64,000 nucleotides of DNA from Acutalibacteraceae bacterium (GTDB taxonomy: Bacteria > Bacillota > Clostridia > Oscillospirales > Acutalibacteraceae). The notes under the pieces are model-generated. The model made no database searches and was not told the origin of the DNA. It saw only the letters and a program-made list of their open reading frames with translations. The first letter of the stretch is position 1; every line of letters starts with the position of its first letter. This document shows positions 7,423 to 53,571 of the stretch, one piece after another. Position numbers and translations under genes: made by a program. The stretch spans positions 20,043 to 84,042 of the forward strand of contig JAZSKE010000031.1 of the NCBI GenBank assembly GCA_045534675.1, in the 5' to 3' direction.

Positions 7423-7800
7423 ATGGCATCAGAAAAAATTACTGCTATCATTGAAGAACTTAAGACTCTTACAGTTCTTGAACTCTCAGAACTCGTACAC
7501 GCTGTAGAAGACGAATTCGGCGTATCAGCTGCTGCTGCAGTTGCAGTTGCAGGTCCCGTAGTAGCTGAAGCAGCTGCTGCAGAAGAAAAGACAGAATTTG
7601 ACCTTGAACTCACAGAAGTTGGCGGCAACAAGATTGCTGTTATCAAGGTTGTTCGTGAAATCACAGGTCTTGGCCTCAAGGAAGCTAAGGAAGCTGTTGA
7701 CGGCGCTCCCAAAGTTATCAAGGAAGCTATGTCAAAGGACGACGGCGAAGCTGCTGTTAAGAAGTTCGAAGAAGCAGGCGCTAAGGCTACACTTAAATAA
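7423..7800 (+). CDS. rplL: 50S ribosomal protein L7/L12
   Basis: N-terminal dimerisation helix, Ala-rich hinge, and C-terminal [22 protein letters not shown]. Confidence 0.97.
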
Positions 7801-7820
7801 TTTAACCTTTTGTAATGAAG

Positions 7821-7851
7821 AAAGACCGACCGCAAGGTTGGTCTTTTTTTG
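7821..7851 (+). terminator. Intrinsic terminator after rplL
   Basis: AGACCGACC-gcaa-GGTTGGTCT (one G-U pair, valid only on the + strand) followed by T7. Confidence 0.85.
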
Positions 7852-7880
7852 GTGTACGCGGGGAAGTGAGTGCAAAAGGT

Positions 7881-7970
7881 GAGGGGCGGCTCCATACCCG
7901 AATTTCATTCGGGTCGGCAACGAATAGCCGTTAAATCGCAAAGCGATTTAAATGGAGCCGCCGCCCCGCC
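7881..7970 (+). repeat. Cloverleaf-like structured intergenic element, copy 1
   Basis: GGCGGCTCC...GGAGCCGCC closing stem around three hairpins. The first 34 nt are identical to copy 2. Confidence 0.8.
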
Positions 7971-8029
7971 AAATATCACCGCACTCTGCAACACGTACCA
8001 ACACCGTCACTATTTAATTGTGATTTTAC

Positions 8030-8058
8030 TTGACACAATGAGCAAGATGTTATAAAAT
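8030..8058 (+). promoter_or_regulatory. Sigma-A promoter for the GH36 gene
   Basis: TTGACA, 17-nt spacer, TAAAAT. Confidence 0.5.
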
Positions 8059-8100
8059 AATATCTGTATATACTATAATGTATAAAAAGGAGAAAATGCT

Positions 8101-11709: not shown

Positions 11710-11738
11710 TTGACAAATCGTCTAAAAACATGTATAAT
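11710..11738 (+). promoter_or_regulatory. Near-consensus sigma-A promoter of the orphan unit
   Basis: TTGACA, 17-nt spacer ending in TG, TATAAT. Confidence 0.6.
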
Positions 11739-11744
11739 GAAGAC

Positions 11745-12110
11745 GAAATAAAAGAAAGGGGTGTTACCAATGTACTGTTTAGTTTAATTCGCAGAGTGTG
11801 AATTATCCTGCTTTGCGGATAAGGAATCCGTAAAGTGAGATTTAAATTAAATAGTGAAAGGTAAGCTTATTACAAGCGAAAACAATTAAGATATTTCATA
11901 CGATGCGTGATCGGATTATATATAAGCCTTATATGAGCGGATGTTAACAGAGGTGTGATTTGTATGTTTTGCAAACAGCCTGAATTTATTCGTTATTCGA
12001 AATCAAATCGCATACATAAAGAAGGCATAAAATTTAATATTTATCTATAACTGAAAAAAATTATTTTAATAAGAAAACGAGGCGGTGAAGATACTGCTTC
12101 GTTTTTTCGT
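11745..12110 (+). ncRNA. Orphan promoter-to-terminator unit (~365 nt) with no long ORF; candidate sRNA or cis-regulatory leader
   Basis: Bounded by the consensus promoter (11710-11738) and an intrinsic terminator (12074-12110). The only coding potential is a 28-codon sORF at 11964-12050 with a GAGGTG RBS. Confidence 0.3.
12074..12110 (+). terminator. Intrinsic terminator or attenuator
   Basis: AAAACGAGGC-loop-GCTTCGTTTT stem with a G-U pair valid only on the + strand, followed by a T-run. Confidence 0.65.
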
Positions 12111-12140
12111 TTTCCATAATATTACCGGTCGTCTTTTTAA

Positions 12141-12206: not shown

Positions 12207-15200
12207 ATGAATCAGTTTTTTTATGATGAAATTAAATGCAGTGTCACGGCTTTAAAGAAGGCGGGTATTGACCCTACACTTTATCTGGATGATGAAATTA
12301 TAATTGTTTCAGATGAGCATTCACTTGCCGCTTATCTTGCAGGCTTTTTCACTGTAGGTAATAAAAAATCACCTTATGTCAATGTTATTACAGGCGCAAA
12401 GCCTCAAAACGCTGACATTTATTCTTATTTGTCTGCTGAGGTCAAGACTCAGCTTGTTCTCTGTGAGAATTATGATGAGTTCATAAACAGGGGAACAGGC
12501 ATAGACAAAAAGCACATATACTACTTTGCTAATTTACAGCTGCCTGAATATGAGAAAGCAGACTTTGTTTCTGCGAAAAAGGCTGACCTTGAAAGATGGC
12601 TGGATTACTGCAGTGAAAATGAAGGTTCCTTTGTTTTTGTACCCGTATTCAACTTCTCAAAGCCTTTTGAAGAGGGCGTAATCAGTATTTCTGAAAGAGA
12701 AATGGAGGCTGTAGCAGGTTCTGATGCAGACTTTTCTGCCGGAAGACTTCTTCTTGAACTTGAAGAAATTTGCCGCAAGCATTTCAAAGAGAAGAATATA
12801 CCAATGAATATTGTCCGCTTTGATAATATTTTCGGACCTATGGTAAAGGATACAACTAAGCTCGGCATTGATAAAATTATAGGTGAGCTTGCCCAAAACA
12901 ATAAAATTCTCTTCAAAAAGTCCGACAGCATCACTCACTACACGGGCTGTTATATCCGTGAAGCAATTACTGCGGTTTATGCAGTAAGCGTAATAGGAAA
13001 AAACGGTAACATCTATAATGCGGCTAATTATAACTTTACCATACACGATGTTAAGGATGCTCTTTATACTCATTTTGCTTCAAAAAATCCCGTGTGTGAT
13101 TTTGACGATGATATGATGGACGGTTGGGTTACTCAGAAGAACTATGAGTGCCTTGCCAATCTGAAGATACAGTCTCTGGGTTGGGCGGAAGAAACACCCT
13201 TCGGTGAAGCAATTTACAGAACTGCCCTTATTACGGTTGAGCAGGAATATAAGGGCGACTTTTATGTGGACATCTATCAGGGTAAGATTGAGCGCATCAA
13301 GCGTATTGAAATGGATATAATGCGCGAAATTGACCGCATATGCCGTGAAAATAATATTAACTATTTCCTTGTCGGCGGTTCACTTTTAGGTGCAATAAGA
13401 CACAAGGGATTTATCCCCTGGGACGATGATATTGATATCGGTATGCTTCGTGAGGATTTTGAAAAGTTCCGCAGACTCTGTCCTAAGGTGCTTCCCTCAC
13501 ACCTGAGCTATCAGTCATATACAGATGAGCCTACATCTCACTATATCTTTGACAAGGTGCGTCTTAAGGACACTTATTTCAGCACAAAGTTCTCCAATAA
13601 ATTCATTGATATAGAAAATGGTATTTTCATCGATATCCTTGTTTATGACAGAACTGCCAATTCCGACTTTTTCCAGAAGCTTCATATAAATTCAATTCGC
13701 TTTTTCCGCCGTCTTATCAATATCCGTTGGGTCGGCAAGGCAAGACGAGGCATACACTACACTGCATCTAAGATAATGCTTCCCATAATGAAAAAGGTGC
13801 CGTTCCTTACCTATCACTACTTCTTTGAAAAGGCACTTCAGATGTTTGATTTTAAGAAAAACAGCAAATATCTTATTGACGGTGTAGGTCAGAACCTTGA
13901 AAAAGGCCCCTTCCCCATGGATTGGTTTGAGGAGCTTATTGATGTACCTTATGAAGATATGATTTTCAAGGCACCCAAAGCCTATGATGCATATCTCAGA
14001 CACTGGTACGGCAACAGATATATGGAATTGCTGCCTCTTTCGTCAAGAAATTCGGGTCACGCCCTTGCAAGACTTGACCTTGGCAGATATCTCTATAAAG
14101 ATACGGAAAATATGCCCGTACGTGAGGTTGACCTTAACGGAGAGCTTTTTGAAAAGCTTGTTTATGAAAACAATCAGGACGGCATGGACGAAAACTTCCT
14201 TGATGAGATTTCACTTATTGACAAAGAAATTCTTATGAATAATATGAAGCACGGAGCCCTTAACAAGAGTGAAATCAACATTATAGGTGACGAACACACT
14301 CTTGCTGCTTACCTTGCCGGATATTATATGTACCGTAACAAGGCGCAGGGAGAGGGCAGTGTCAATGTTATACTTGAAGGTAAGTGCCGTAACAAAAAAC
14401 TCTATGACCAGATAAGTGAAGAATTTGACGGTAACGGTCTTTTCAATGTTTATGACAGTATTGACAAATACTACAGTATGAGTAAGCCAAATTCCAAGAA
14501 GGTTTATTTCTATCTTGCAAATCTTCAGCTTGATGAATACGCAGACTATGAATTTGTAAGAGAAAAGAAGAAAAATCTTCGCAAGTGGCTTGCACTTTCA
14601 AGAAACTCAAGCGGCAGATTTGTCTTTATACCCTTTTTCAATTTTGCAAAGCCCTTTGACGGTGGCGTTGCCGCAATATCAGAGCGCGAGGTTGAATCCA
14701 TAGTGCTTTATGAAAAGGATTTCCGTCAAGGCAGAATACTTCTTGAGCTTGAGGATGTATGCAGAAAATCCTTCTCATATACAAAAAATCCACTTAATGT
14801 TGTTCGCTTTGACAATATTTTCGGTCCCTTTGTTGAGGATACATCAAAGCTCGGTTTCGGCAGTGTACTCAAAGAGCTTAAAGAAAATAACTCAATTACC
14901 TTCAGAAACAGTGACAGCATTGTTAATTATTCAGCATGCTACATCCGTCAGGCGGTTACTGCAGTGCATTGCGTTGCACTCAAGGGCAGAATAGGCAATA
15001 TTTATAATGCGGCAAATTATAACTTCACACTTCACGATATCAAAACACTTCTCTACGGTGCTTTTGCTGAGAGAAATCCTGCAGTGAGCTTTGTTAACGA
15101 TATTGATAGAGTGCCGCAGGAAAAACTGTATGAGCGTCTCGGTAACCTCAAACTCAGAGATATCGGCTGGACTGAGGTGACACCTCTTGATGAAGCACTT

Positions 15201-16148
15201 GCAAGAACAGTTTATGCTGACCTTGAAAGCAGCGGAGATGACAAGATAAGCCAGACACTCTATCAGGGTAAGCTTAAGAAAATCCGCCAGCTTCAGCTTG
15301 AAATCATAGCCGATGTTGACCGTATATGCCGCAATAACAATATCAGATATTTCCTTGTGGGCGGCTCACTTTTGGGTGCAGTCAAATACGGAGGCTACAT
15401 TCCTTGGGAGGATACAATTGATATAGGTATGTTCCGCGAGGATTATGAAAAATTCAAGGTTGTTTGTCCTAAGGAGCTTTCAGATAAGCTGAAATATCAG
15501 AGCTATGAAAAAGGCTCATCAACTCATTTTATACACGATAAAATCCGTCTCAATGATACAGGCTTCTTCACCGCCGTTTCAGAAAATCATAAGCTTGTTG
15601 ACCTTGGTCTGTTTATTAATGTTTATGTTTACGATAAAACGGCAGGTACTACAATCGGCAGACAGCTTCACTCCTTTACGGTGCAAAATCTCAGAAGACT
15701 TATTAATCTTCGTTGGCAGAATAAGGCTGTACCCGGACCTCACTACAGACTTTATAAGCTTATTCTTCCCTTTGTCAGAATGGTACCCTTTAACCTTTAT
15801 CATGTTATGCTTGATAAGGTGCTTCGCCGTTACAGCAAGAAGGAAAACTGTGTCTTCCTCATTGACGGTGAGGGATTAAGCCTTCACAAGGGTGCTTTCC
15901 CCGCAAAGTGGTTCTATAATCTTGGTGAAATGGAATTTGAAGGTGTCAAGCTTCCCGTACCCGAGTATTATGACGATTATCTCAAGCACTTCTATGGCGA
16001 AAACTATATGAAGACAATTCCTGAGAGTAAGCGTCACAGCGGCAGAAAAATTCTTCGTATCGACCTTGGTAAATATCTCTATGACGAAACGGCAAATGCT
16101 GTAGCTCACAAGAAAAATGCCAAAGGCGAACTCTTTGAGGAATTATAA
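12207..16148 (+). CDS. Tandem-duplicated [degenerate extended-SDR-like domain + LicD-family phosphotransferase domain] x2 protein
   Basis: 1313 aa. The two halves (about aa 1-652 and 653-1313) align end to end. Each half has an RFDNIFGP / IYNAANYNFT epimerase-like core and a YFLVGGSLLGA...PW(DDD/EDT)IDIGM LicD signature. No TM segments are visible. Confidence 0.8.
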   Translation: MNQFFYDEIKCSVTALKKAGIDPTLYLDDEIIIVSDEHSLAAYLAGFFTVGNKKSPYVNVITGAKPQNADIYSYLSAEVKTQLVLCENYDEFINRGTGIDKKHIYYFANLQLPEYEKADFVSAKKADLERWLDYCSENEGSFVFVPVFNFSKPFEEGVISISEREMEAVAGSDADFSAGRLLLELEEICRKHFKEKNIPMNIVRFDNIFGPMVKDTTKLGIDKIIGELAQNNKILFKKSDSITHYTGCYIREAITAVYAVSVIGKNGNIYNAANYNFTIHDVKDALYTHFASKNPVCDFDDDMMDGWVTQKNYECLANLKIQSLGWAEETPFGEAIYRTALITVEQEYKGDFYVDIYQGKIERIKRIEMDIMREIDRICRENNINYFLVGGSLLGAIRHKGFIPWDDDIDIGMLREDFEKFRRLCPKVLPSHLSYQSYTDEPTSHYIFDKVRLKDTYFSTKFSNKFIDIENGIFIDILVYDRTANSDFFQKLHINSIRFFRRLINIRWVGKARRGIHYTASKIMLPIMKKVPFLTYHYFFEKALQMFDFKKNSKYLIDGVGQNLEKGPFPMDWFEELIDVPYEDMIFKAPKAYDAYLRHWYGNRYMELLPLSSRNSGHALARLDLGRYLYKDTENMPVREVDLNGELFEKLVYENNQDGMDENFLDEISLIDKEILMNNMKHGALNKSEINIIGDEHTLAAYLAGYYMYRNKAQGEGSVNVILEGKCRNKKLYDQISEEFDGNGLFNVYDSIDKYYSMSKPNSKKVYFYLANLQLDEYADYEFVREKKKNLRKWLALSRNSSGRFVFIPFFNFAKPFDGGVAAISEREVESIVLYEKDFRQGRILLELEDVCRKSFSYTKNPLNVVRFDNIFGPFVEDTSKLGFGSVLKELKENNSITFRNSDSIVNYSACYIRQAVTAVHCVALKGRIGNIYNAANYNFTLHDIKTLLYGAFAERNPAVSFVNDIDRVPQEKLYERLGNLKLRDIGWTEVTPLDEALARTVYADLESSGDDKISQTLYQGKLKKIRQLQLEIIADVDRICRNNNIRYFLVGGSLLGAVKYGGYIPWEDTIDIGMFREDYEKFKVVCPKELSDKLKYQSYEKGSSTHFIHDKIRLNDTGFFTAVSENHKLVDLGLFINVYVYDKTAGTTIGRQLHSFTVQNLRRLINLRWQNKAVPGPHYRLYKLILPFVRMVPFNLYHVMLDKVLRRYSKKENCVFLIDGEGLSLHKGAFPAKWFYNLGEMEFEGVKLPVPEYYDDYLKHFYGENYMKTIPESKRHSGRKILRIDLGKYLYDETANAVAHKKNAKGELFEEL

Positions 16149-16160
16149 TCTATTCAGATG

Positions 16161-16200
16161 TTACCCTGCAGGGATTATCCTTGCAGGGTAATTTGATATT
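16161..16200 (+). terminator. Intrinsic terminator after the LicD-type gene
   Basis: TTACCCTGCA-11 nt-TGCAGGGTAA followed by TTTGATATTT. Confidence 0.7.
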
Positions 16201-16221
16201 TCGAGTGAGTTTGTGCAATAT

Positions 16222-16311
16222 GGGCGGCGGCTCCATACCCGAATTTCATTCGGGTCGGCTACATGAAGTAGCCGTAAATCGCCAAGGCGATTTAATGGAG
16301 CCGCCTGCCGC
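16222..16311 (+). repeat. Cloverleaf-like structured intergenic element, copy 2
   Basis: Same architecture as copy 1. Hairpin 2 is extended to 7 bp (CGGCTAC-atgaa-GTAGCCG). Confidence 0.8.
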
Positions 16312-16387
16312 TGACCGATTTTGCGGGAAGATAGCTGTATATTATTGCTGCTTCCCCGCAATTCCGAATTTGGCATTCCGAATTTTC

Positions 16388-16416
16388 TTGACATAGCTGT
16401 CAAAAAATAGTATTAT
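16388..16416 (+). promoter_or_regulatory. Sigma-A promoter for rnj
   Basis: TTGACA, 17-nt spacer, TATTAT. Confidence 0.5.
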
Positions 16417-32746: not shown

Positions 32747-32971
32747 ATGGAAAAGCTTATAGTTGACAGAATAACCGAAGGTGTAGCAGTTCTCGAAAAA
32801 GAAGACAGAAGTCATATTGAAGTGTCTCTCTCAGACATCGGAATTGATATAACAGAGGGGAGTGTCCTTCTCTTTGACGGGACGAAATATACTGCTGATG
32901 CCAATGAAGAAGATGAAAGAAGAAGAAGAATCTTTGCAATGCAGGAAATGTTGAAAAAAAGGAAGTCCTGA
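32747..32971 (+). CDS. DUF3006-like small protein
   Basis: 74 aa with the DRITEGVAVLE...EGSVLLFDG pattern typical of DUF3006, which commonly follows ComEC-like MBL genes. Confidence 0.6.
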   Translation: MEKLIVDRITEGVAVLEKEDRSHIEVSLSDIGIDITEGSVLLFDGTKYTADANEEDERRRRIFAMQEMLKKRKS

Positions 32972-32984
32972 GTTTAAAGCAAGT

Positions 32985-33072
32985 CAGCGGCAGGCGGCTC
33001 CACAGCCGAACACCGTTCGGCGCGGCTACGGCGTTGCCGTAAATCGCTTTGCGATTTTGCGAAGCCGCCTCA
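32985..33072 (+). repeat. Cloverleaf-like structured intergenic element, copy 3 (divergent)
   Basis: Same four-stem layout, with compensatory changes in hairpin 1 (GCCGAAC-acc-GTTCGGC). Confidence 0.7.
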
Positions 33073-33119: not shown

Positions 33120-33148
33120 TTGACTTAATCCCCACACTGTGCTATAAT
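33120..33148 (+). promoter_or_regulatory. Sigma-A promoter for rpsB-tsf
   Basis: TTGACT, 17-nt spacer, TGcTATAAT (extended -10). Confidence 0.6.
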
Positions 33149-45516: not shown

Positions 45517-47070
45517 TTGGATAAAAGTCAGATATTAACTGTCAGAAATCTTGCTGAATATTCAGTAGAAAAATTTGCAGAAAAAGATTTCTGCCGTTTC
45601 ATCAGAGACGGTGAGATTTTTGCTAAATCATATAAAGAGTTTTATGAAGATGCACTGAGCATCTGCAGATACATCCGATCAAAGAGCAAGGAAAAAATGA
45701 ATATCGGCTTCATCGGAAAAACAAGCTACGAATATATAGCTTGCCTTACAGGTATGATTTTCAGCGGCAATACTGTTGTACCCTTTGCGCCTGATATTAC
45801 TGTTGAGGAAGCTGTTGAACTTTTTGACGATGCTGATATTGAGATTCTTTTCTGCGAAGAAGAATTTGCGGAAAAGGCACGCATGATTAAAAGAAACTTC
45901 GGTGGTCTCAGAGATATAATTTCTCTTGGCAATTGGCAGTGGTTTGAGAATATATATAAAGAGTTTTCATCTGACTCAGCCTATGCGGCTCTTTCAGATG
46001 TTGAGGTTGAACCTGAGAGATGTGCTCTTATTATCTATACCTCCGGCACAACAGGCAAGAGAAAGGGTGTTATGCTTTCTCAGAATAACCTTGCAGCTAA
46101 CTCAACCTACGATGCTTACGCATTGGATAACGATGATGTCAGCTTCTCAATTTTGCCTATGCATCATGTTTTCTGTTATGCCTGTGATGTACTTAAGACT
46201 CTCTACGACGGCGGTACACTTTGCCTTAACGGTCAGCTTCAGAATTTATATAAGCATATGCTTATGTTTGAGCCTACAATTATGAGAATAGTACCTGCTA
46301 TCTGCAAGTCAATTCTCACTAAGATTAAAATCACCGAAAGACAGAATCCTACTCTTTCAAAAAGAGAGGCTGCCGAAAAGGTTGTGGGCAGAAACTTCAG
46401 ACGCATGATAGCCGGCAGTGCCTTTTTGAGCGGTGCGGTTATTGACGAGTTTGAGCAGTACGGCATCACTGCAAGACAGGGCTACGGCATGAGCGAGTGC
46501 AGTCCCAGAATTACTACATCAGATTTTTCTGATAAACTTAAATATTCCAACGGCAGACTTACAGGTGTTGATGAAGTAAGAAGTGTCGACGGCGAAATTC
46601 AGGTTAAGGGTCCCAGCGTAATGCTCGGATATTATAAGATGCCTGAAGAAACAAAGGCTGCTTTCACTGAGGACGGTTGGCTTCACACAGGTGACCTGGG
46701 TTATGTTCAAGACGGACATATTTTCCTTGTGGGCAGAAAAAAGAATCTGATTATTCTTTCCAACGGCGAAAACATCTCTCCCGAAGAAATTGAGAACCGT
46801 TTTGCCGATGAAGGTATAATAAAAGAAATCGTTGTTTTGGCAGAAAACGATAAGCTTGTTGCTGAGATTTTCCCTGACGAAGTGCTTGCCGAAACTTTAG
46901 GTATCACAGATATTGAGGGCGTTATTTCTGCTGTTATAGATAAGGTGAATATGATTTCAGCTTCTGACAGACAGATTTATTCCTTCCGTCTTCGTGAGAA
47001 GCCCTTTGAGAGAACCTCAACAGGCAAGATAAAGAGAACCGAATTTTATTTTAAGGGTAATAAAAATTAA
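45517..47070 (+). CDS. Stand-alone adenylate-forming enzyme (acyl-AMP/acyl-CoA ligase-like)
   Basis: TTG start after AAGGAAG. AMP-binding motifs IIYTSGTTGKRKGV, YGMSEC, TGDLGY and a terminal TSTGKIKR. Confidence 0.88.
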   Translation: MDKSQILTVRNLAEYSVEKFAEKDFCRFIRDGEIFAKSYKEFYEDALSICRYIRSKSKEKMNIGFIGKTSYEYIACLTGMIFSGNTVVPFAPDITVEEAVELFDDADIEILFCEEEFAEKARMIKRNFGGLRDIISLGNWQWFENIYKEFSSDSAYAALSDVEVEPERCALIIYTSGTTGKRKGVMLSQNNLAANSTYDAYALDNDDVSFSILPMHHVFCYACDVLKTLYDGGTLCLNGQLQNLYKHMLMFEPTIMRIVPAICKSILTKIKITERQNPTLSKREAAEKVVGRNFRRMIAGSAFLSGAVIDEFEQYGITARQGYGMSECSPRITTSDFSDKLKYSNGRLTGVDEVRSVDGEIQVKGPSVMLGYYKMPEETKAAFTEDGWLHTGDLGYVQDGHIFLVGRKKNLIILSNGENISPEEIENRFADEGIIKEIVVLAENDKLVAEIFPDEVLAETLGITDIEGVISAVIDKVNMISASDRQIYSFRLREKPFERTSTGKIKRTEFYFKGNKN

Positions 47071-47096
47071 AATTTCCCGAAGGAGGACCTAACGTT

Positions 47097-48641
47097 ATGG
47101 TTGAAGTATTTTTACCTACAGGTGAAAAAGTACACGCTTATCCCATTACCAGTTCACAGAAGATGATGTATCTTATGTCGCTTAAATACGGCTCAGGCTA
47201 TCCTGTTAACAATATCGGATTTGGCTTTTATTGGCAGGGTGAAATGGACAAGGCTGTTATGAAAAAAGCTATTTACGAAGCGATTGAACGTTGTGACACA
47301 ATGAGACTTCGTTTTGTTATGGGCAAGAAGCTTCAGCTTCTTCAGTATGTAACATATAACAGTGAGCTTGTTGTTGAAGATTGGGACTTCAGTGATATGA
47401 CAATCGATGAGGCTGAGGAAAAGATACTTGCTTTCTCAAGAGAGAGCATTCCCATGTATAAGTGCGAGCTTCATAAAATTGCCCTTGTTGATTTTGCTGA
47501 CGGATATCACGGCATCTTTATGAGAATACAGCACCTTGCAATGGATGCTTATTCACTCAAGGTCTTCGTCAATGATATTATTGATATCTATATGCACAGA
47601 ACAAGAGGTACCGGATATCCCAAGCCTATGCGTCCCTACATACCCGTACTTGAAGATGAGCTTGCTTATGAAACATCTAAGCAGCATAAAGATGACCAGA
47701 TGTATTGGTACAACTCACTTGCTCTGAGTACTGAGCCTATCTTCACAGATTTCATGCTTGATAACAGACTTAAACAGCAGCAGATTAAGGAACCGGACAA
47801 GCGTTATGCTGACATTCACTCAGGTCTTCCCGATGCTTCAGGCTTCAAGTTCAGCATGAGCGCAGAAGACAGCAAAAAGATAATGGATATGTGCGAGGCA
47901 AACAATCTTTCCATCTTCTCATATCTTTCAATGGGTGTTCGCACCGCTCTTTCATGCTTCAATGATAATCAGGAAGATGTTTCCTTCAAGATGATTATCA
48001 ACAGACGCGGTACTATTGCCGAAAAGAAGTCAGGCGGTATCCGTATCAACTTCCTTCCTATGAGAAGCATTGTCAAGCCTACCGAAACTTTTATCGATGC
48101 AGTCAGAGGCATTTCTGAGATTCAGAACGAAATGTATCAGCATTCAAGACTTGCATTCCTTGAAACACTTGCTGAAAGACACAAGTCAATGTCAAAGGAT
48201 GCTAAGTTTGACTCAACATATGACAGCTTCGGTCTTTCATATCAGCCCCATGTCAAGATGAAAGCCATTGACGAGCAGATGGAAAAGACAGCACGTACTA
48301 TATGGTACAACAACGGTGCTATTATGATTCCTCTTTATGTAACTGTTGTTCACAGACAAGGTGATGCAGGCTTTGATTTCATCTGCGAATACAGATCAGA
48401 GCAGCAGGCTGAATATGACCTCAGAGTACTTTGCTCAAAAATTGAAAAAGCTATGGTTCTCGGTGCAGAGAATCCCCATATAACAGTACAGGAAGTACTT
48501 GATAAAATTGCGTTAACTGATGAAGAAAGGAACGGTAAACCCCAATGCAAACAATCGAAAAACTTATTGACATCCTTGCAAACTACGTGGAAGCTGACGA
48601 AATCAAGGCTGAAGACAATTTTAAGTCTGATCTCGGCATGA
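47097..48641 (+). CDS. Stand-alone condensation (C) domain protein
   Basis: C1-like motif YPITSSQKMMYLM and a catalytic HHxxxDG-type variant, IQHLAMDAYS. About 480 aa of C-domain length. The last ~32 codons overlap the carrier-protein gene. Confidence 0.75.
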   Translation: MVEVFLPTGEKVHAYPITSSQKMMYLMSLKYGSGYPVNNIGFGFYWQGEMDKAVMKKAIYEAIERCDTMRLRFVMGKKLQLLQYVTYNSELVVEDWDFSDMTIDEAEEKILAFSRESIPMYKCELHKIALVDFADGYHGIFMRIQHLAMDAYSLKVFVNDIIDIYMHRTRGTGYPKPMRPYIPVLEDELAYETSKQHKDDQMYWYNSLALSTEPIFTDFMLDNRLKQQQIKEPDKRYADIHSGLPDASGFKFSMSAEDSKKIMDMCEANNLSIFSYLSMGVRTALSCFNDNQEDVSFKMIINRRGTIAEKKSGGIRINFLPMRSIVKPTETFIDAVRGISEIQNEMYQHSRLAFLETLAERHKSMSKDAKFDSTYDSFGLSYQPHVKMKAIDEQMEKTARTIWYNNGAIMIPLYVTVVHRQGDAGFDFICEYRSEQQAEYDLRVLCSKIEKAMVLGAENPHITVQEVLDKIALTDEERNGKPQCKQSKNLLTSLQTTWKLTKSRLKTILSLISA

Positions 48642-52206: not shown

Positions 52207-53571
52207 TTACATATTGCCGAAGATTTCTCTAATCTCAGCAGCTCTGCCGCAGGTCATTTTGCCTTCGGGACAAGCTCCGTGTACATAGCAGCTGGGTCCG
52301 TAAAGCGAGAAGAGGTCAGGTGAAATCTTGCGAAGCTTCTTAAGGAAATCGTTAGCAAAGAGCTGAATTTCCCACTGAGCTCTTGTGCATGAGCGAAGTC
52401 TGAAGAAAAGAAGCATCTCACGGGCGTTCATTGTTGTTACAATGTCAAGAGTGTTACCGCTGAGTACGCAGTATATAAGCACATTATCGTCATATCCCTT
52501 TGTTTTAAGCTCGTTATAAAGCTCTTTCATATCAGCGAAAGCCTCGTTATAAATTGCGAGTGCATCACTGTCAGCCTTTATTGTGTCAGGGATAACATAT
52601 GAGCTTCTGTCTGCTTTCATAAGACTCGGAATGCAAATGCTCTGTATTCTGTGTCTTGCAAAATGTGTCAGACAAGCAAGTGAAACCTTGTTGAATTTAA
52701 CTGTGCAGGTGTAGCTTTCAAGCGCTCTGGGTCTTGATGATGCTGCAAGCTTTTTAAATACAGCTTTAATGTTTTCCTTATCGCTCACGATTTTTTTTGC
52801 AGCAGCAGGGGAGTAGCCTGCCTCATAAAGTGCGCACAAGGCTACATTCTTTTCGCCGTCGGGCGTATATGCAAGAATTTCGCAAAGCTCATCGGATGAC
52901 TTGTCATCACCGTTTTCAAAGCCGTAATCAAGTTCATCGTTATATTTCTGACCTTTAAGCTCAAAGTCAATAAACAGACCGGGTGCAATAGCCTTACACT
53001 GCTCAAGCAGTGACAGACCTATTTCATATATCTCTTTGATTTTTCTGCCTCTGCCGTAAATCATGGCATTAAGCACATTTATAAGCTCTCTGCCGCCAAG
53101 TGAACAGAAAAAGTTTGAATAGAAGCAGTAGGGCAGCACAAAGCGTGCATCCTCTTTCGGAATTTCTTTTTCGGTCAGTGCTGAGTAAGCGGCAAAAAGC
53201 TTGTCCATTACGGCAGTGTACTTTGCCATATCTTTATCGTCAGCGAATGCGGGAACAAGATAACCGCAATCTGCAAAGTCGACATAGCGTCTTGATTTAA
53301 CGGTGAATGAAGCAAGTCTGAATTCAATCATAAACTGCTCAACAACAACGCTGACATTTTCAAAAGCAAGGTTGAAGAATATGTGTTCAATTGTTGAGGT
53401 GTGACCTGATTTTGTTACTTTGCCGATAAGTTTTGTGTTTTTTTCTTCGTCGTGGCTTCTCTCAAAAATTTCAAGAGCAGTGCCGTTCTGTGTGGAAATT
53501 CGTCCCGATGCGGCGCAGACCTCCTGCTTTACATCTGAACAGCCTATTACAAAAGCACCGTGTTTATCCAT
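52207..53571 (-). CDS. Double-length, internally duplicated ThyX-family (FAD-dependent thymidylate synthase-like) protein
   Basis: 454 aa. The first half has SGHTSTIEH and FRLASFTVKSRRY. The second half has FARHRIQSICIPS (RHRxxS). Confidence 0.7.
   Translation of the reverse strand: MDKHGAFVIGCSDVKQEVCAASGRISTQNGTALEIFERSHDEEKNTKLIGKVTKSGHTSTIEHIFFNLAFENVSVVVEQFMIEFRLASFTVKSRRYVDFADCGYLVPAFADDKDMAKYTAVMDKLFAAYSALTEKEIPKEDARFVLPYCFYSNFFCSLGGRELINVLNAMIYGRGRKIKEIYEIGLSLLEQCKAIAPGLFIDFELKGQKYNDELDYGFENGDDKSSDELCEILAYTPDGEKNVALCALYEAGYSPAAAKKIVSDKENIKAVFKKLAASSRPRALESYTCTVKFNKVSLACLTHFARHRIQSICIPSLMKADRSSYVIPDTIKADSDALAIYNEAFADMKELYNELKTKGYDDNVLIYCVLSGNTLDIVTTMNAREMLLFFRLRSCTRAQWEIQLFANDFLKKLRKISPDLFSLYGPSCYVHGACPEGKMTCGRAAEIREIFGNM

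What the first reader, a model, noticed from the sequence alone, without database searches (positions are those of the whole stretch)
7881..7970. Unrecognised ~90-nt cloverleaf-like (four-way junction) element present three times, with compensatory base-pair changes
Seen directly: the copies lie at 7881-7970, 16222-16311 and 32985-33072. All are intergenic and in the same orientation. Each folds the same way. A closing stem GGCGGCTCC...GGAGCCGCC encloses three hairpins: H1 CCCGAAT-ttc-ATTCGGG, H2 CGGC...GCCG (4 bp in copy 1, 7 bp CGGCTAC/GTAGCCG in copy 2), and H3 AAATCGC-loop-GCGATTT. Copy 3 has diverged in sequence but keeps the pairing. In H1 it reads GCCGAAC-acc-GTTCGGC, so two base pairs are swapped by double substitutions (C:G to G:C and T:A to C:G). 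The H3 loops differ (AAA, CAAG, TTT) while the stem is retained. Stems conserved by covariation with free loops is the signature of a selected structure, not a decaying repeat. The topology is tRNA-like, but there are no T-loop or anticodon motifs. I cannot match it to a named RNA family or to a known REP, BOX or RUP type element.
Basis: seen in the sequence. Interest (0 to 1): 0.7.

Follow-up and report, generated by a model that had tools for sequence, protein, structure and literature searches.

The report
Cloverleaf-shaped dispersed intergenic DNA repeat
The three copies belong to a previously undescribed family of short repeats, found about once every 20 kb between genes in a group of uncultured gut Clostridia, whose four-armed fold has been kept by selection on both DNA strands, so it resembles a REP-type genome repeat rather than a small RNA gene.

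Summary
Three cores (7885-7962, 16226-16305, 32993-33069) fold as a closing stem plus three hairpins, with almost no unpaired junction bases.

A covariance model finds 106 copies in 611 kb from about 14 Acutalibacteraceae MAGs. It finds none in 251 kb from more distant relatives. There is no match in Rfam, tRNA scans, phage or plasmid collections, or the literature.

Pairing is strongly conserved: 97% Watson-Crick, with 157 double-substitution cells. Copies at the same locus in different species keep 94% stem identity, while loops, arms and flanks fall to 56-59%.

The evidence points away from a discrete RNA:
- G:T (0.6%) is no commoner than A:C (1.0%).
- Orientation relative to flanking genes is random (28 versus 33).
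- Copies usually lie 15-30 nt beyond an intrinsic terminator's T-tract.
- Metatranscriptome contigs rarely contain them.

Degenerate inverted arms flank the core. I found no parent IS, no target duplication and no clean empty site.

Best reading: a new, structurally unusual REP/MITE-like element that acts as folded DNA, probably as a protein recognition site. The partner protein and the function are inferred, not shown.

The parts
7885..7962 (+). Copy 1 core. Closing stem GGCGGCTCCAT/ATGGAGCCGCC encloses H1 (ACCCGAAT-ttc-ATTCGGGT), H2 (CGGC..GCCG) and H3 (TAAATCGC-aaa-GCGATTTA).
7851..7884 (+). Copy 1 left arm (GGTGTACGCGGGGAAGTGAGTGCAAAAGGTGAGG). It matches the family arm consensus and starts right after the rplL terminator T-tract.
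7963..7999 (+). Copy 1 right arm, degenerate. It pairs partly with the left arm (GAGTGC/GCACTC, GGTG/CACC, ..CGTACC end).
7822..7850 (+). rplL intrinsic terminator (hairpin plus T-tract) between rplL and copy 1. RNA contig depth falls to 0 here.
8030..8058 (+). Sigma-70-like promoter (TTGACA-17-TAAAAT) of the downstream GH36 gene. Copy 1 lies between the terminator and this promoter.
16226..16305 (+). Copy 2 core. It is closest to the family consensus, with a 7-bp H2 (CGGCTAC/GTAGCCG).
16203..16225 (+). Copy 2 left arm (GAGTGAGTTTGTGCAATATGGGC), degenerate.
16306..16330 (+). Copy 2 right arm, degenerate.
16160..16200 (+). Terminator-like 15-bp hairpin plus weak T-tract after the LicD-family gene, immediately upstream of copy 2.
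16388..16416 (+). Promoter-like site (TTGACA-17-TATTAT) for the RNase J gene, downstream of copy 2.
32993..33069 (+). Copy 3 core. It is diverged: H1 is GCCGAAC-acc-GTTCGGC, and the closing stem has one C:A mismatch (G:T on the minus strand).
32972..32992 (+). Copy 3 left arm remnant. It starts directly after the stop codon of a 74-aa ORF (32747-32971), with no separate terminator in between.
33120..33148 (+). rpsB promoter (TTGACT-17-TATAAT), downstream of copy 3.

Best explanation
The three copies belong to a lineage-restricted family of dispersed, non-coding intergenic repeats of the REP/MITE kind, found in Acutalibacteraceae (gut Clostridia).

Anatomy: each unit has a 77-80-nt core that folds into a near-perfect four-way junction, on either strand. 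A 10-11-bp closing stem encloses three 7-8-bp hairpins with 3-5-nt loops. The core is flanked by 20-33-nt inverted arms that decay after insertion.

Placement: units sit outside transcription units, typically starting a few bases after the T-tract of an intrinsic terminator, in either orientation.

Shown: the stems are under purifying selection, at individual loci, for both sequence and strict Watson-Crick complementarity.

Inferred: the element works as folded DNA, either as a cruciform or cloverleaf extruded from the duplex or formed in transiently single-stranded DNA. In that form it would serve as a structure- and sequence-specific protein recognition site. The partner could be the enzyme that once spread it, host nucleoid or topology proteins at the ends of transcription units, or both. 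This is the logic established for REP/BIME/REPIN elements. It is not a small-RNA gene.
For: Family and specificity: a genome scan gave 80 loci (the cap), all from Acutalibacteraceae/Clostridia MAGs. The model R1 finds 106 copies in 611 kb, 0 in 251 kb around rpsB of relatives with 67-82% RpsB identity, and only the 3 copies in the window with filters off.

Structure: 97.7% of cells are paired, 15 of 32 pairs covary, there are 157 double-change cells, and 0 of 500 shuffles reach this. Very divergent copies keep all four helices with different sequences.

Selection at loci: across 33 cross-species orthologous pairs, stem identity is 93.6%, against 59% for loops, 59% for arms and 56% for outer flanks. 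Coding flanks are 70-97% identical. The rplL-linked copy is kept in 8 of 10 contigs even though the downstream genes differ, and it shows compensatory changes in H1-H3.

DNA rather than RNA:
- Watson-Crick 97.2%, G:T 0.56%, A:C 1.0%.
- Sense-strand versus antisense-strand wobble is 19 versus 13.
- Orientation in tandem gene contexts is 28 co-oriented versus 33 anti-oriented.
- An inward-facing terminator lies on 61 of 203 sides, against 14 outward-facing, and its T-tail ends a median of 23 nt before the core.
- RNA contig depth drops to 0 at the rplL terminator, and the element has depth 0 in 7 of 8 run-by-copy tests.
- The RNA contigs that do contain it are low-depth (2.4-4.4) and longer than the element, with other flanks.
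- In DNA metagenomes the core has about 20 times the flank depth.
- The fold is equally stable as DNA on both strands.

Repeat-like features: consensus inverted arms always accompany a core (21 of 21). Convergent spacers outnumber divergent ones, 18 versus 5.
Against: - No partner protein, transposase or RAYT was identified. Only 611 kb of the carrier genomes could be examined.
- Nothing here shows directly that the DNA extrudes or is bound.
- A few metatranscriptome contigs do contain copies.
- Copy 3 follows a stop codon with no terminator in between, so some copies are probably transcribed.
- RNA evidence comes from assembled contigs of mixed communities, which show presence better than absence.
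- Gene orientation used crude longest-ORF calls.
- Most of the 106 copies were fetched with a seed pattern that fixes part of the closing stem and H1.
- No target-site duplication or clean empty site was found, so mobility is inferred from copy number and arms only.
Confidence: 0.55

Rival explanations
1. It is a cis-acting RNA element. When transcribed as a 3' UTR or by read-through, from either side, the very stable cloverleaf would block 3'-5' exonucleases or help stop read-through. This would resemble the action of REP and Correia elements on mRNA.
For: - The fold is very stable as RNA on both strands.
- Copies lie at gene 3' ends and are enriched in convergent spacers (18 versus 5).
- Copy 3 follows a stop codon with no other terminator before the next promoter.
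- Low-depth RNA contigs run through copies.
- Sense-strand wobble is slightly commoner (19 versus 13).
Against: - About half of the copies have a canonical terminator between the gene and the element, with tight spacing.
- rplL RNA coverage ends before copy 1.
- G:U, which is nearly neutral in RNA, is as rare as A:C (0.56% versus 1.0%).
- In tandem contexts the orientation is random, yet the untranscribed-sense copies are equally conserved.
Confidence: 0.25
2. It is a neutral selfish MITE. The pairing would be kept mechanically, by template-switch correction of quasi-palindromes or gene conversion between copies, or would simply reflect recent spread, with no host or element function for the fold.
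For: - High copy number, inverted arms and lineage restriction.
- Strict Watson-Crick symmetry is what template-switch correction would give.
- Some sites look decayed or empty: L084, L083, L074, L012 and L009.
Against: - Orthologous copies in different species keep 94% stem identity while adjacent intergenic DNA is at the alignment floor. Correction without selection would let stems drift at close to the neutral rate.
- Loops differ between copies, so homogenising conversion is unlikely.
- The long-range closing stem and the order of the helices are kept even in highly diverged sub-families.
- The copies are fixed in four independent metagenomes, with no empty alleles.
Confidence: 0.12
3. It is a multi-copy gene family for a trans-acting, tRNA-like structured small RNA.
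For: Cloverleaf topology and covariation.
Against: - ARAGORN finds nothing, and there is no Rfam match.
- Loops are 3 nt long and free to vary.
- No associated promoter was seen.
- Both orientations occur.
- The element is near absent from RNA contigs although there are about 100 copies per genome.
- G:U is not tolerated.
Confidence: 0.03

Closest known systems
REP / BIME / REPIN elements with RAYT transposases (Enterobacteria, Pseudomonas)
   Same: - Extragenic, G+C-rich palindromic repeats present at tens to hundreds of copies.
- Lineage-specific and persistent by vertical descent (abstracts).
- Placed at gene 3' ends.
- Pairing is maintained.
- Thought to act as folded single strands recognised by a tyrosine transposase, and as sites for nucleoid and topology proteins (PMC3733652; the gyrase, IHF and HU part is from my own knowledge).
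   Different: - A REP is a single 20-40-nt imperfect hairpin tagged by GTAG or CGTC and often arranged in inverted pairs. This element is one 77-80-nt four-way junction with flanking arms and no terminal GTAG/CGTC tag.
- No RAYT was seen in the DNA available.
- The host is a Firmicute.
Bacterial MITEs that fold as long hairpins (Correia/Nemis, ERIC/IRU, RUP, BOX, Bacillus cereus bcr1)
   Same: - 100-170 nt overall when the arms are counted.
- Terminal inverted repeats, intergenic location and no coding capacity.
- Predicted stable folds.
   Different: - No target-site duplication or parent IS was found.
- The arms decay like neutral DNA while the internal core is conserved.
- The core is branched (three hairpins) instead of one long stem.
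- Placement is tight, just after terminator T-tracts.
Folded single-strand recombination or replication sites (integron attC, IS200/IS605 ends, CTX attP; parvovirus T-shaped ITR as a shape analogue)
   Same: Structure is conserved more than loop sequence. The site is recognised as folded DNA. A large palindrome encloses smaller palindromes.
   Different: - No neighbouring integrase or transposase.
- Not in cassette arrays.
- No extrahelical bases or strand asymmetry.
- Dispersed on a chromosome next to housekeeping genes.
tRNA and tRNA-like cloverleaves
   Same: Four-helix cloverleaf topology.
   Different: - 10-11-bp closing stem and 3-nt loops.
- No T-loop, D-loop or anticodon features.
- No ARAGORN call.
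- Fold-symmetric on both strands.

Membership tests
REP / REPIN-RAYT | Short (20-40 nt) single imperfect palindrome | tested here: not met
   The core is 77-80 nt with four helices.
REP / REPIN-RAYT | Conserved GTAG (or CGTC) tetranucleotide at one end | tested here: not met
   The ends read GGCGGCTCC / GGAGCCGCC. The arm ends read ..GTACGCGGGG / CCCCGCGTAC... GTAG occurs only inside H2 of some copies.
REP / REPIN-RAYT | High-copy extragenic distribution within a lineage | tested here: met
   106 copies in 611 kb, 3 in this 64-kb window and 0 in 251 kb of relatives.
REP / REPIN-RAYT | A cognate RAYT (IS200/IS605-type Y1 transposase) gene flanked by the repeats | tested here: inconclusive
   None appears among 39 window proteins or 9 proteins lying between paired copies. 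Whole genomes could not be scanned.
MITE | Small, non-coding, with terminal inverted repeats | tested here: met
   The consensus arm is present in inverted orientation on both sides, though often only one side survives. All 21 arm matches adjoin a core.
MITE | Target-site duplication | tested here: inconclusive
   No clean filled/empty pair was found. L056 versus L074 differ by 225 versus 20 nt with diverged edges. The arms abut T-tracts.
MITE | Parent IS with the same ends | tested here: not met
   There are no orphan arms and no solo closing-stem ends in the loci held. This covers the sampled DNA only.
MITE | Insertion polymorphism between close relatives | tested here: inconclusive
   The element is absent at orthologous sites in L074, L012, L009, L083 and L084. 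It is fixed in 8 metagenome runs at copies 1 and 3, with no skipping joints.
tRNA / tRNA-like | Recognisable acceptor, D, anticodon and T arms with conserved loops | tested here: not met
   ARAGORN reports 0 genes. Loops are 3-5 nt and variable.
Any Rfam 15 family | Covariance-model score at or above the gathering threshold | tested here: not met
   The only hit in the window is the L10 leader. The best sub-threshold hit that overlaps a copy is naRNA4, at 19.8 bits against a 59.5-bit threshold.
Structured RNA in general | G:U wobble tolerated far more than A:C on the functional strand | tested here: not met
   G:T 18 cells and A:C 32 cells out of 3193. Sense versus antisense wobble is 19 versus 13.
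Integron attC | Single imperfect hairpin with extrahelical bases, in cassette arrays next to intI | tested here: not met
   The fold is branched and fully paired. Copies are 8-17 kb apart among housekeeping genes, with no integrase.
Intrinsic terminator | G+C-rich hairpin followed directly by a T-tract | tested here: not met
   No T-tract follows the core or its right arm in the three copies. Separate terminators lie outside the arms.

The most novel reading that the evidence does not exclude
The core is a new class of structured DNA signal: a chromosomal cloverleaf (four-way junction) read on either strand by a dedicated, still unidentified protein. It would be kept at the ends of transcription units because it does something for the host, such as acting as a barrier to read-through or supercoil diffusion, or as a loading or restart site. 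On this reading it is not merely a relic of a transposon.
Probability: 0.25. Interest if true: 0.75.

Novelty: new variant of a known kind. Interest (0 to 1): 0.5.

Why it matters
Dispersed palindromic repeats are well studied in Proteobacteria and a few pathogens. They are hardly studied in the uncultured Clostridia that dominate animal guts.

This family gives an unusually clean case of locus-by-locus purifying selection on a branched fold that is symmetric between strands. That separates "selected DNA structure" from both "decaying transposon" and "RNA gene", and makes the question testable.

In practice, the element breaks metagenome assemblies (contigs end at it). It is also a specific marker for one clade of Acutalibacteraceae.

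If a partner protein exists, the element offers a route to a new DNA-junction recognition system.

Tried and rejected
- Rfam at gathering threshold on the whole window, and at E<=10 on three copies: nothing relevant.
- tRNA and tmRNA scan: none.
- Seed pattern in viral contigs: 0 hits.
- blastn against plasmids and phages: no match.
- Literature searches by taxon, by concept and by the sequence itself: nothing. One supplement hit in PMC8040213 is an unrelated hairpin.
- Copy-specific arm pairing: own arms pair no better than arms from other copies (-28.4 versus -30.1 kcal/mol). I therefore dropped the idea of a covarying long outer stem.
- Parent IS search via orphan arms or solo closing-stem ends: none.
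- Empty-site search for boundaries: only diverged, unclean cases.
- Skipping joints in DNA metagenomes: none.
- Exact RpsB look-up: not on record.
- Metagenome loci for rpsB turned out to be too distant. They served as a negative control.
- Genes between paired copies: ordinary or phage genes, with no Y1 transposase.
- The scripting machine was lost, so an R-scape-like test and a re-count on the rplL ortholog set could not be scripted. I used RNAalifold counts instead.

Full report
**Observation.** Exact-match and repeat searches place the cores at 7885-7962, 16226-16305 and 32993-33069. For copies 1 and 2 the minimum-free-energy structure is the described four-way junction. It has a 10-11-bp closing stem (GGCGGCTCCAT/ATGGAGCCGCC) and three hairpins, with only one or two unpaired junction bases. 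This holds with RNA parameters (z = -7 to -8) and with DNA parameters (z = -10 to -11), on both strands. Copy 3 has a C:A mismatch in the closing stem, which is G:T on the other strand, and folds fully only on the minus strand. With filters off, the covariance model finds only these three copies in the window (81-94 bits). The next hit scores 14 bits.

**What the surroundings are.** The window is core chromosome of a Clostridium-class bacterium. Its genes include ftsQ, ftsZ, secE, nusG, rplKAJL with an L10 leader, RNase J, gdpP, rplI, dnaB, tilS, ftsH, ftsK, rpsB-tsf, arg genes, a topoisomerase pair, thyX and hprK. No transposase or integrase is present.
- Copy 1 lies between the rplL terminator (7822-7850) and the promoter of a GH36 gene (8030-8058).
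- Copy 2 lies between a terminator-like hairpin after a double-LicD gene and the RNase J promoter.
- Copy 3 starts 21 nt after the stop codon of a 74-aa ORF and precedes the rpsB promoter.

**A large family in a narrow clade.**
- A scan of species-representative genomes with a 20-base pattern from the closing stem and H1 returned 80 loci (the cap). All came from about 14 Acutalibacteraceae or unclassified Clostridia MAGs of yak, roe deer, other animal and human gut.
- A covariance model built from 80 distinct copies found 106 copies in the 611 kb held. Twenty-four of them do not match the seed pattern.
- The model found nothing in 251 kb around rpsB of 80 more distant relatives with 67-82% RpsB identity.
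- In DNA metagenomes the core has about 20 times the depth of its flanks, and contigs break at it.
- Three copies in 64 kb, and 24 extra copies in about 600 kb, suggest on the order of 100 copies per genome.
- There is no match in viral contigs, plasmids, phages, Rfam or the searchable literature.

**The fold is conserved by compensatory change.**
- On 80 copies, 97.7% of pair cells are standard pairs. Fifteen of 32 pairs show double changes, in 157 cells. No shuffle out of 500 reaches these values, and sliding the partners collapses pairing to 27-42%.
- The seed pattern fixes part of the closing stem and H1. The copies found only by the model are therefore the better test, and they keep all four helices with quite different sequences. 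H1 appears as CCTGTCC/GGACAGG or GGCGAAC/GTTCGCC. H2 is almost any sequence of 5-12 bp. H3 appears as AAAGCACC/GGTGCTTT. The closing stem appears as GGGGGGCTGCGC/GCGCAGCCCCCC.
- Two sub-families can coexist in one genome.

**Selection acts locus by locus.** Flank matching identified many orthologous copies in different species. Over 33 such pairs, stem positions are 93.6% identical. Loops and junction are 59% identical, the 33-nt arms 59% and the outer intergenic flanks 56%, which is about the alignment floor. The neighbouring coding DNA is 70-97% identical.

The copy after rplL is the clearest case. An identical RplL protein is encoded on contigs of several species, and the element sits about 80 nt after the stop codon, in + orientation, in 8 of 10 contigs. 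This holds although the downstream gene differs (GH36, PfkB kinase, or a CDP-alcohol phosphatidyltransferase on the other strand). These orthologs show compensatory changes in every hairpin, for example CCGAA/TTCGG becoming CCAAAGCC/GGCTTTGG. Another ortholog set shows the series C:G, T:G, T:A at one H1 pair. Copies 1 and 3 are fixed in eight metagenome runs, with no skipping joints.

**It does not behave like an RNA gene.**
1. Among 3193 pair cells from 100 distinct copies, G:T makes up 0.56% and A:C 1.0%. In copies between tandem genes, wobble on the sense strand is not significantly commoner than on the antisense strand (19 versus 13). From general knowledge of RNA families, G:U is expected to be far commoner than A:C on a functional RNA strand. 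Strict Watson-Crick pairing means both strands must be able to fold.
2. Orientation relative to flanking genes is random in tandem contexts: 28 co-oriented versus 33 anti-oriented. Convergent spacers (18) are favoured over divergent ones (5). These gene calls are crude ORF calls.
3. Under a strict definition, 61 of 203 sides carry an inward-facing terminator, against 14 outward-facing. The T-tail ends 15-30 nt (median 23) before the core, which is at the outer edge of the arm. Many copies therefore lie just beyond the transcript.
4. In four metatranscriptomes that cover rplJ-rplL at depths of tens to thousands, coverage stops at the terminator. Copy 1 has depth 0 in three runs and 6.9 in one. 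Copy 3 has depth 0 in four runs while rpsB reaches thousands. Only one RNA run in the index holds a word of copy 2. The few RNA contigs that contain a copy have depth 2.4-4.4, are longer than the element and carry other flanks. These are contig data from mixed communities, so they argue against an abundant discrete RNA, not against any transcription.

**Arms and mobility.** Outside the core, many copies carry a recognisable arm. Read from outside to inside, its consensus is (T-tract)GGTACGCGGGGAAGTTTCTGCAAGAGGTGGGAG, and it occurs in inverted orientation on the two sides. Often only one side is preserved. A copy's own two arms pair no better than arms taken from different copies, and the arms evolve like neutral DNA. 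They look like terminal inverted repeats that mattered for insertion and then decay. Every arm match adjoins a core, and there are no solo closing-stem ends, so no parent IS is visible in the sample. Orthologous sites lacking the element exist (L074, L012, L009, L083, L084), but none has clean edges. No target duplication could be read. Mobility is therefore inferred, not shown.

**Most likely mechanism.**
- Shown: a lineage-specific, high-copy, non-coding intergenic element. Its branched fold and stem sequences are under purifying selection symmetrically on both strands. It is placed at the ends of transcription units, independent of orientation, and is scarcely represented in RNA.
- Inferred: it acts as folded DNA, either a cloverleaf or cruciform extruded under negative supercoiling or formed in transient single strands. 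The conserved stems (GGCGGCTCC, CCGAA, AAATCGC) and the junction would be read by a protein.
- That protein could be the enzyme that spread the element, as RAYT does for REP (PMC3733652). It could also be host nucleoid or topology proteins, as reported for REP/BIME (my own knowledge).
- I put 0.55 on this reading.
- Rivals: a cis-acting RNA stabiliser or insulator working in either orientation (0.25), a neutral MITE with mechanically maintained palindromes (0.12), and a trans-acting tRNA-like sRNA (0.03).

**Comparison with known systems.** The element works like REP/REPIN and hairpin-forming MITEs, but it fails their membership tests. It is not a single short hairpin. It has no GTAG or CGTC tag, no RAYT seen, no target duplication and no parent IS. 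The cloverleaf resemblance to tRNA is only topological. The nearest Rfam score on a copy is a chance-level 19.8 bits to naRNA4, which is itself a REP325 product. The branched, junction-tight core, its conservation while the arms decay, and the tight placement after terminator T-tracts are the new features. I rate it a new variant of a known kind, with interest 0.5.

**Caveats.**
- The copy set is biased by the seed pattern.
- Gene orientation rests on ORF heuristics.
- RNA evidence is contig-based.
- Whole carrier genomes could not be scanned.
- The scripting environment was lost, so later counts rely on the built-in tools.

Noticed in passing
window 7800-8100; L081-L090: rplL is not followed by rpoB/rpoC. 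Species that encode an identical RplL have different genes downstream (GH36, PfkB kinase, CDP-alcohol phosphatidyltransferase). The synteny break lies right after the element.
   Followed up: partly
window 11710-12115: A promoter-like site (TTGACA..TATAAT) and, about 380 nt later, a terminator-like hairpin. There is no Rfam match and no ORF above 37 aa. This is an unassigned small transcription unit upstream of the LicD gene.
   Followed up: partly
window 12207-16148: A 1313-aa protein with two LicD domains. An internal 197-nt direct repeat (13273 and 15259, 72% identity) marks the duplication.
   Followed up: no
window 52207-53571 (-): A 454-aa ThyX-type protein with two Thy1 stretches, about twice the usual length.
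   Followed up: no
window 45517-48641: An adjacent AMP-binding enzyme and a stand-alone condensation-domain protein, forming a small NRPS-like pair among housekeeping genes.
   Followed up: no
L034, L076, L040, L008, L027, L030, L052: Two sub-families of the element coexist in single genomes. Type A has H3 AAATCGC/GCGATTT. Type B has H3 AAAGCACC/GGTGCTTT and a closing stem ..CTCCGT/ACGGAG...
   Followed up: partly
L019, L021, L030, L031, L052, L053, L057, L072, L079 (flanks of the element): Terminators of the form AAGACAGYC..GRCTGTCTTTTT recur next to the arms at different loci of the same genomes. They may be a common terminator type or part of a larger composite repeat.
   Followed up: no
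L054 5996-7940: One copy lies directly after phage small and large terminase genes, so the element also occurs in a prophage-like region. The seed pattern has no hit in viral contigs.
   Followed up: no
L056 2085-2120: A short run of AAATGCAAA-like repeats lies beside a copy that is absent from the orthologous site in L074.
   Followed up: no
window 33061: All four DNA metagenomes examined read A instead of G at this position, in the 3' strand of copy 3's closing-stem region. The window's strain therefore differs from the common allele.
   Followed up: no
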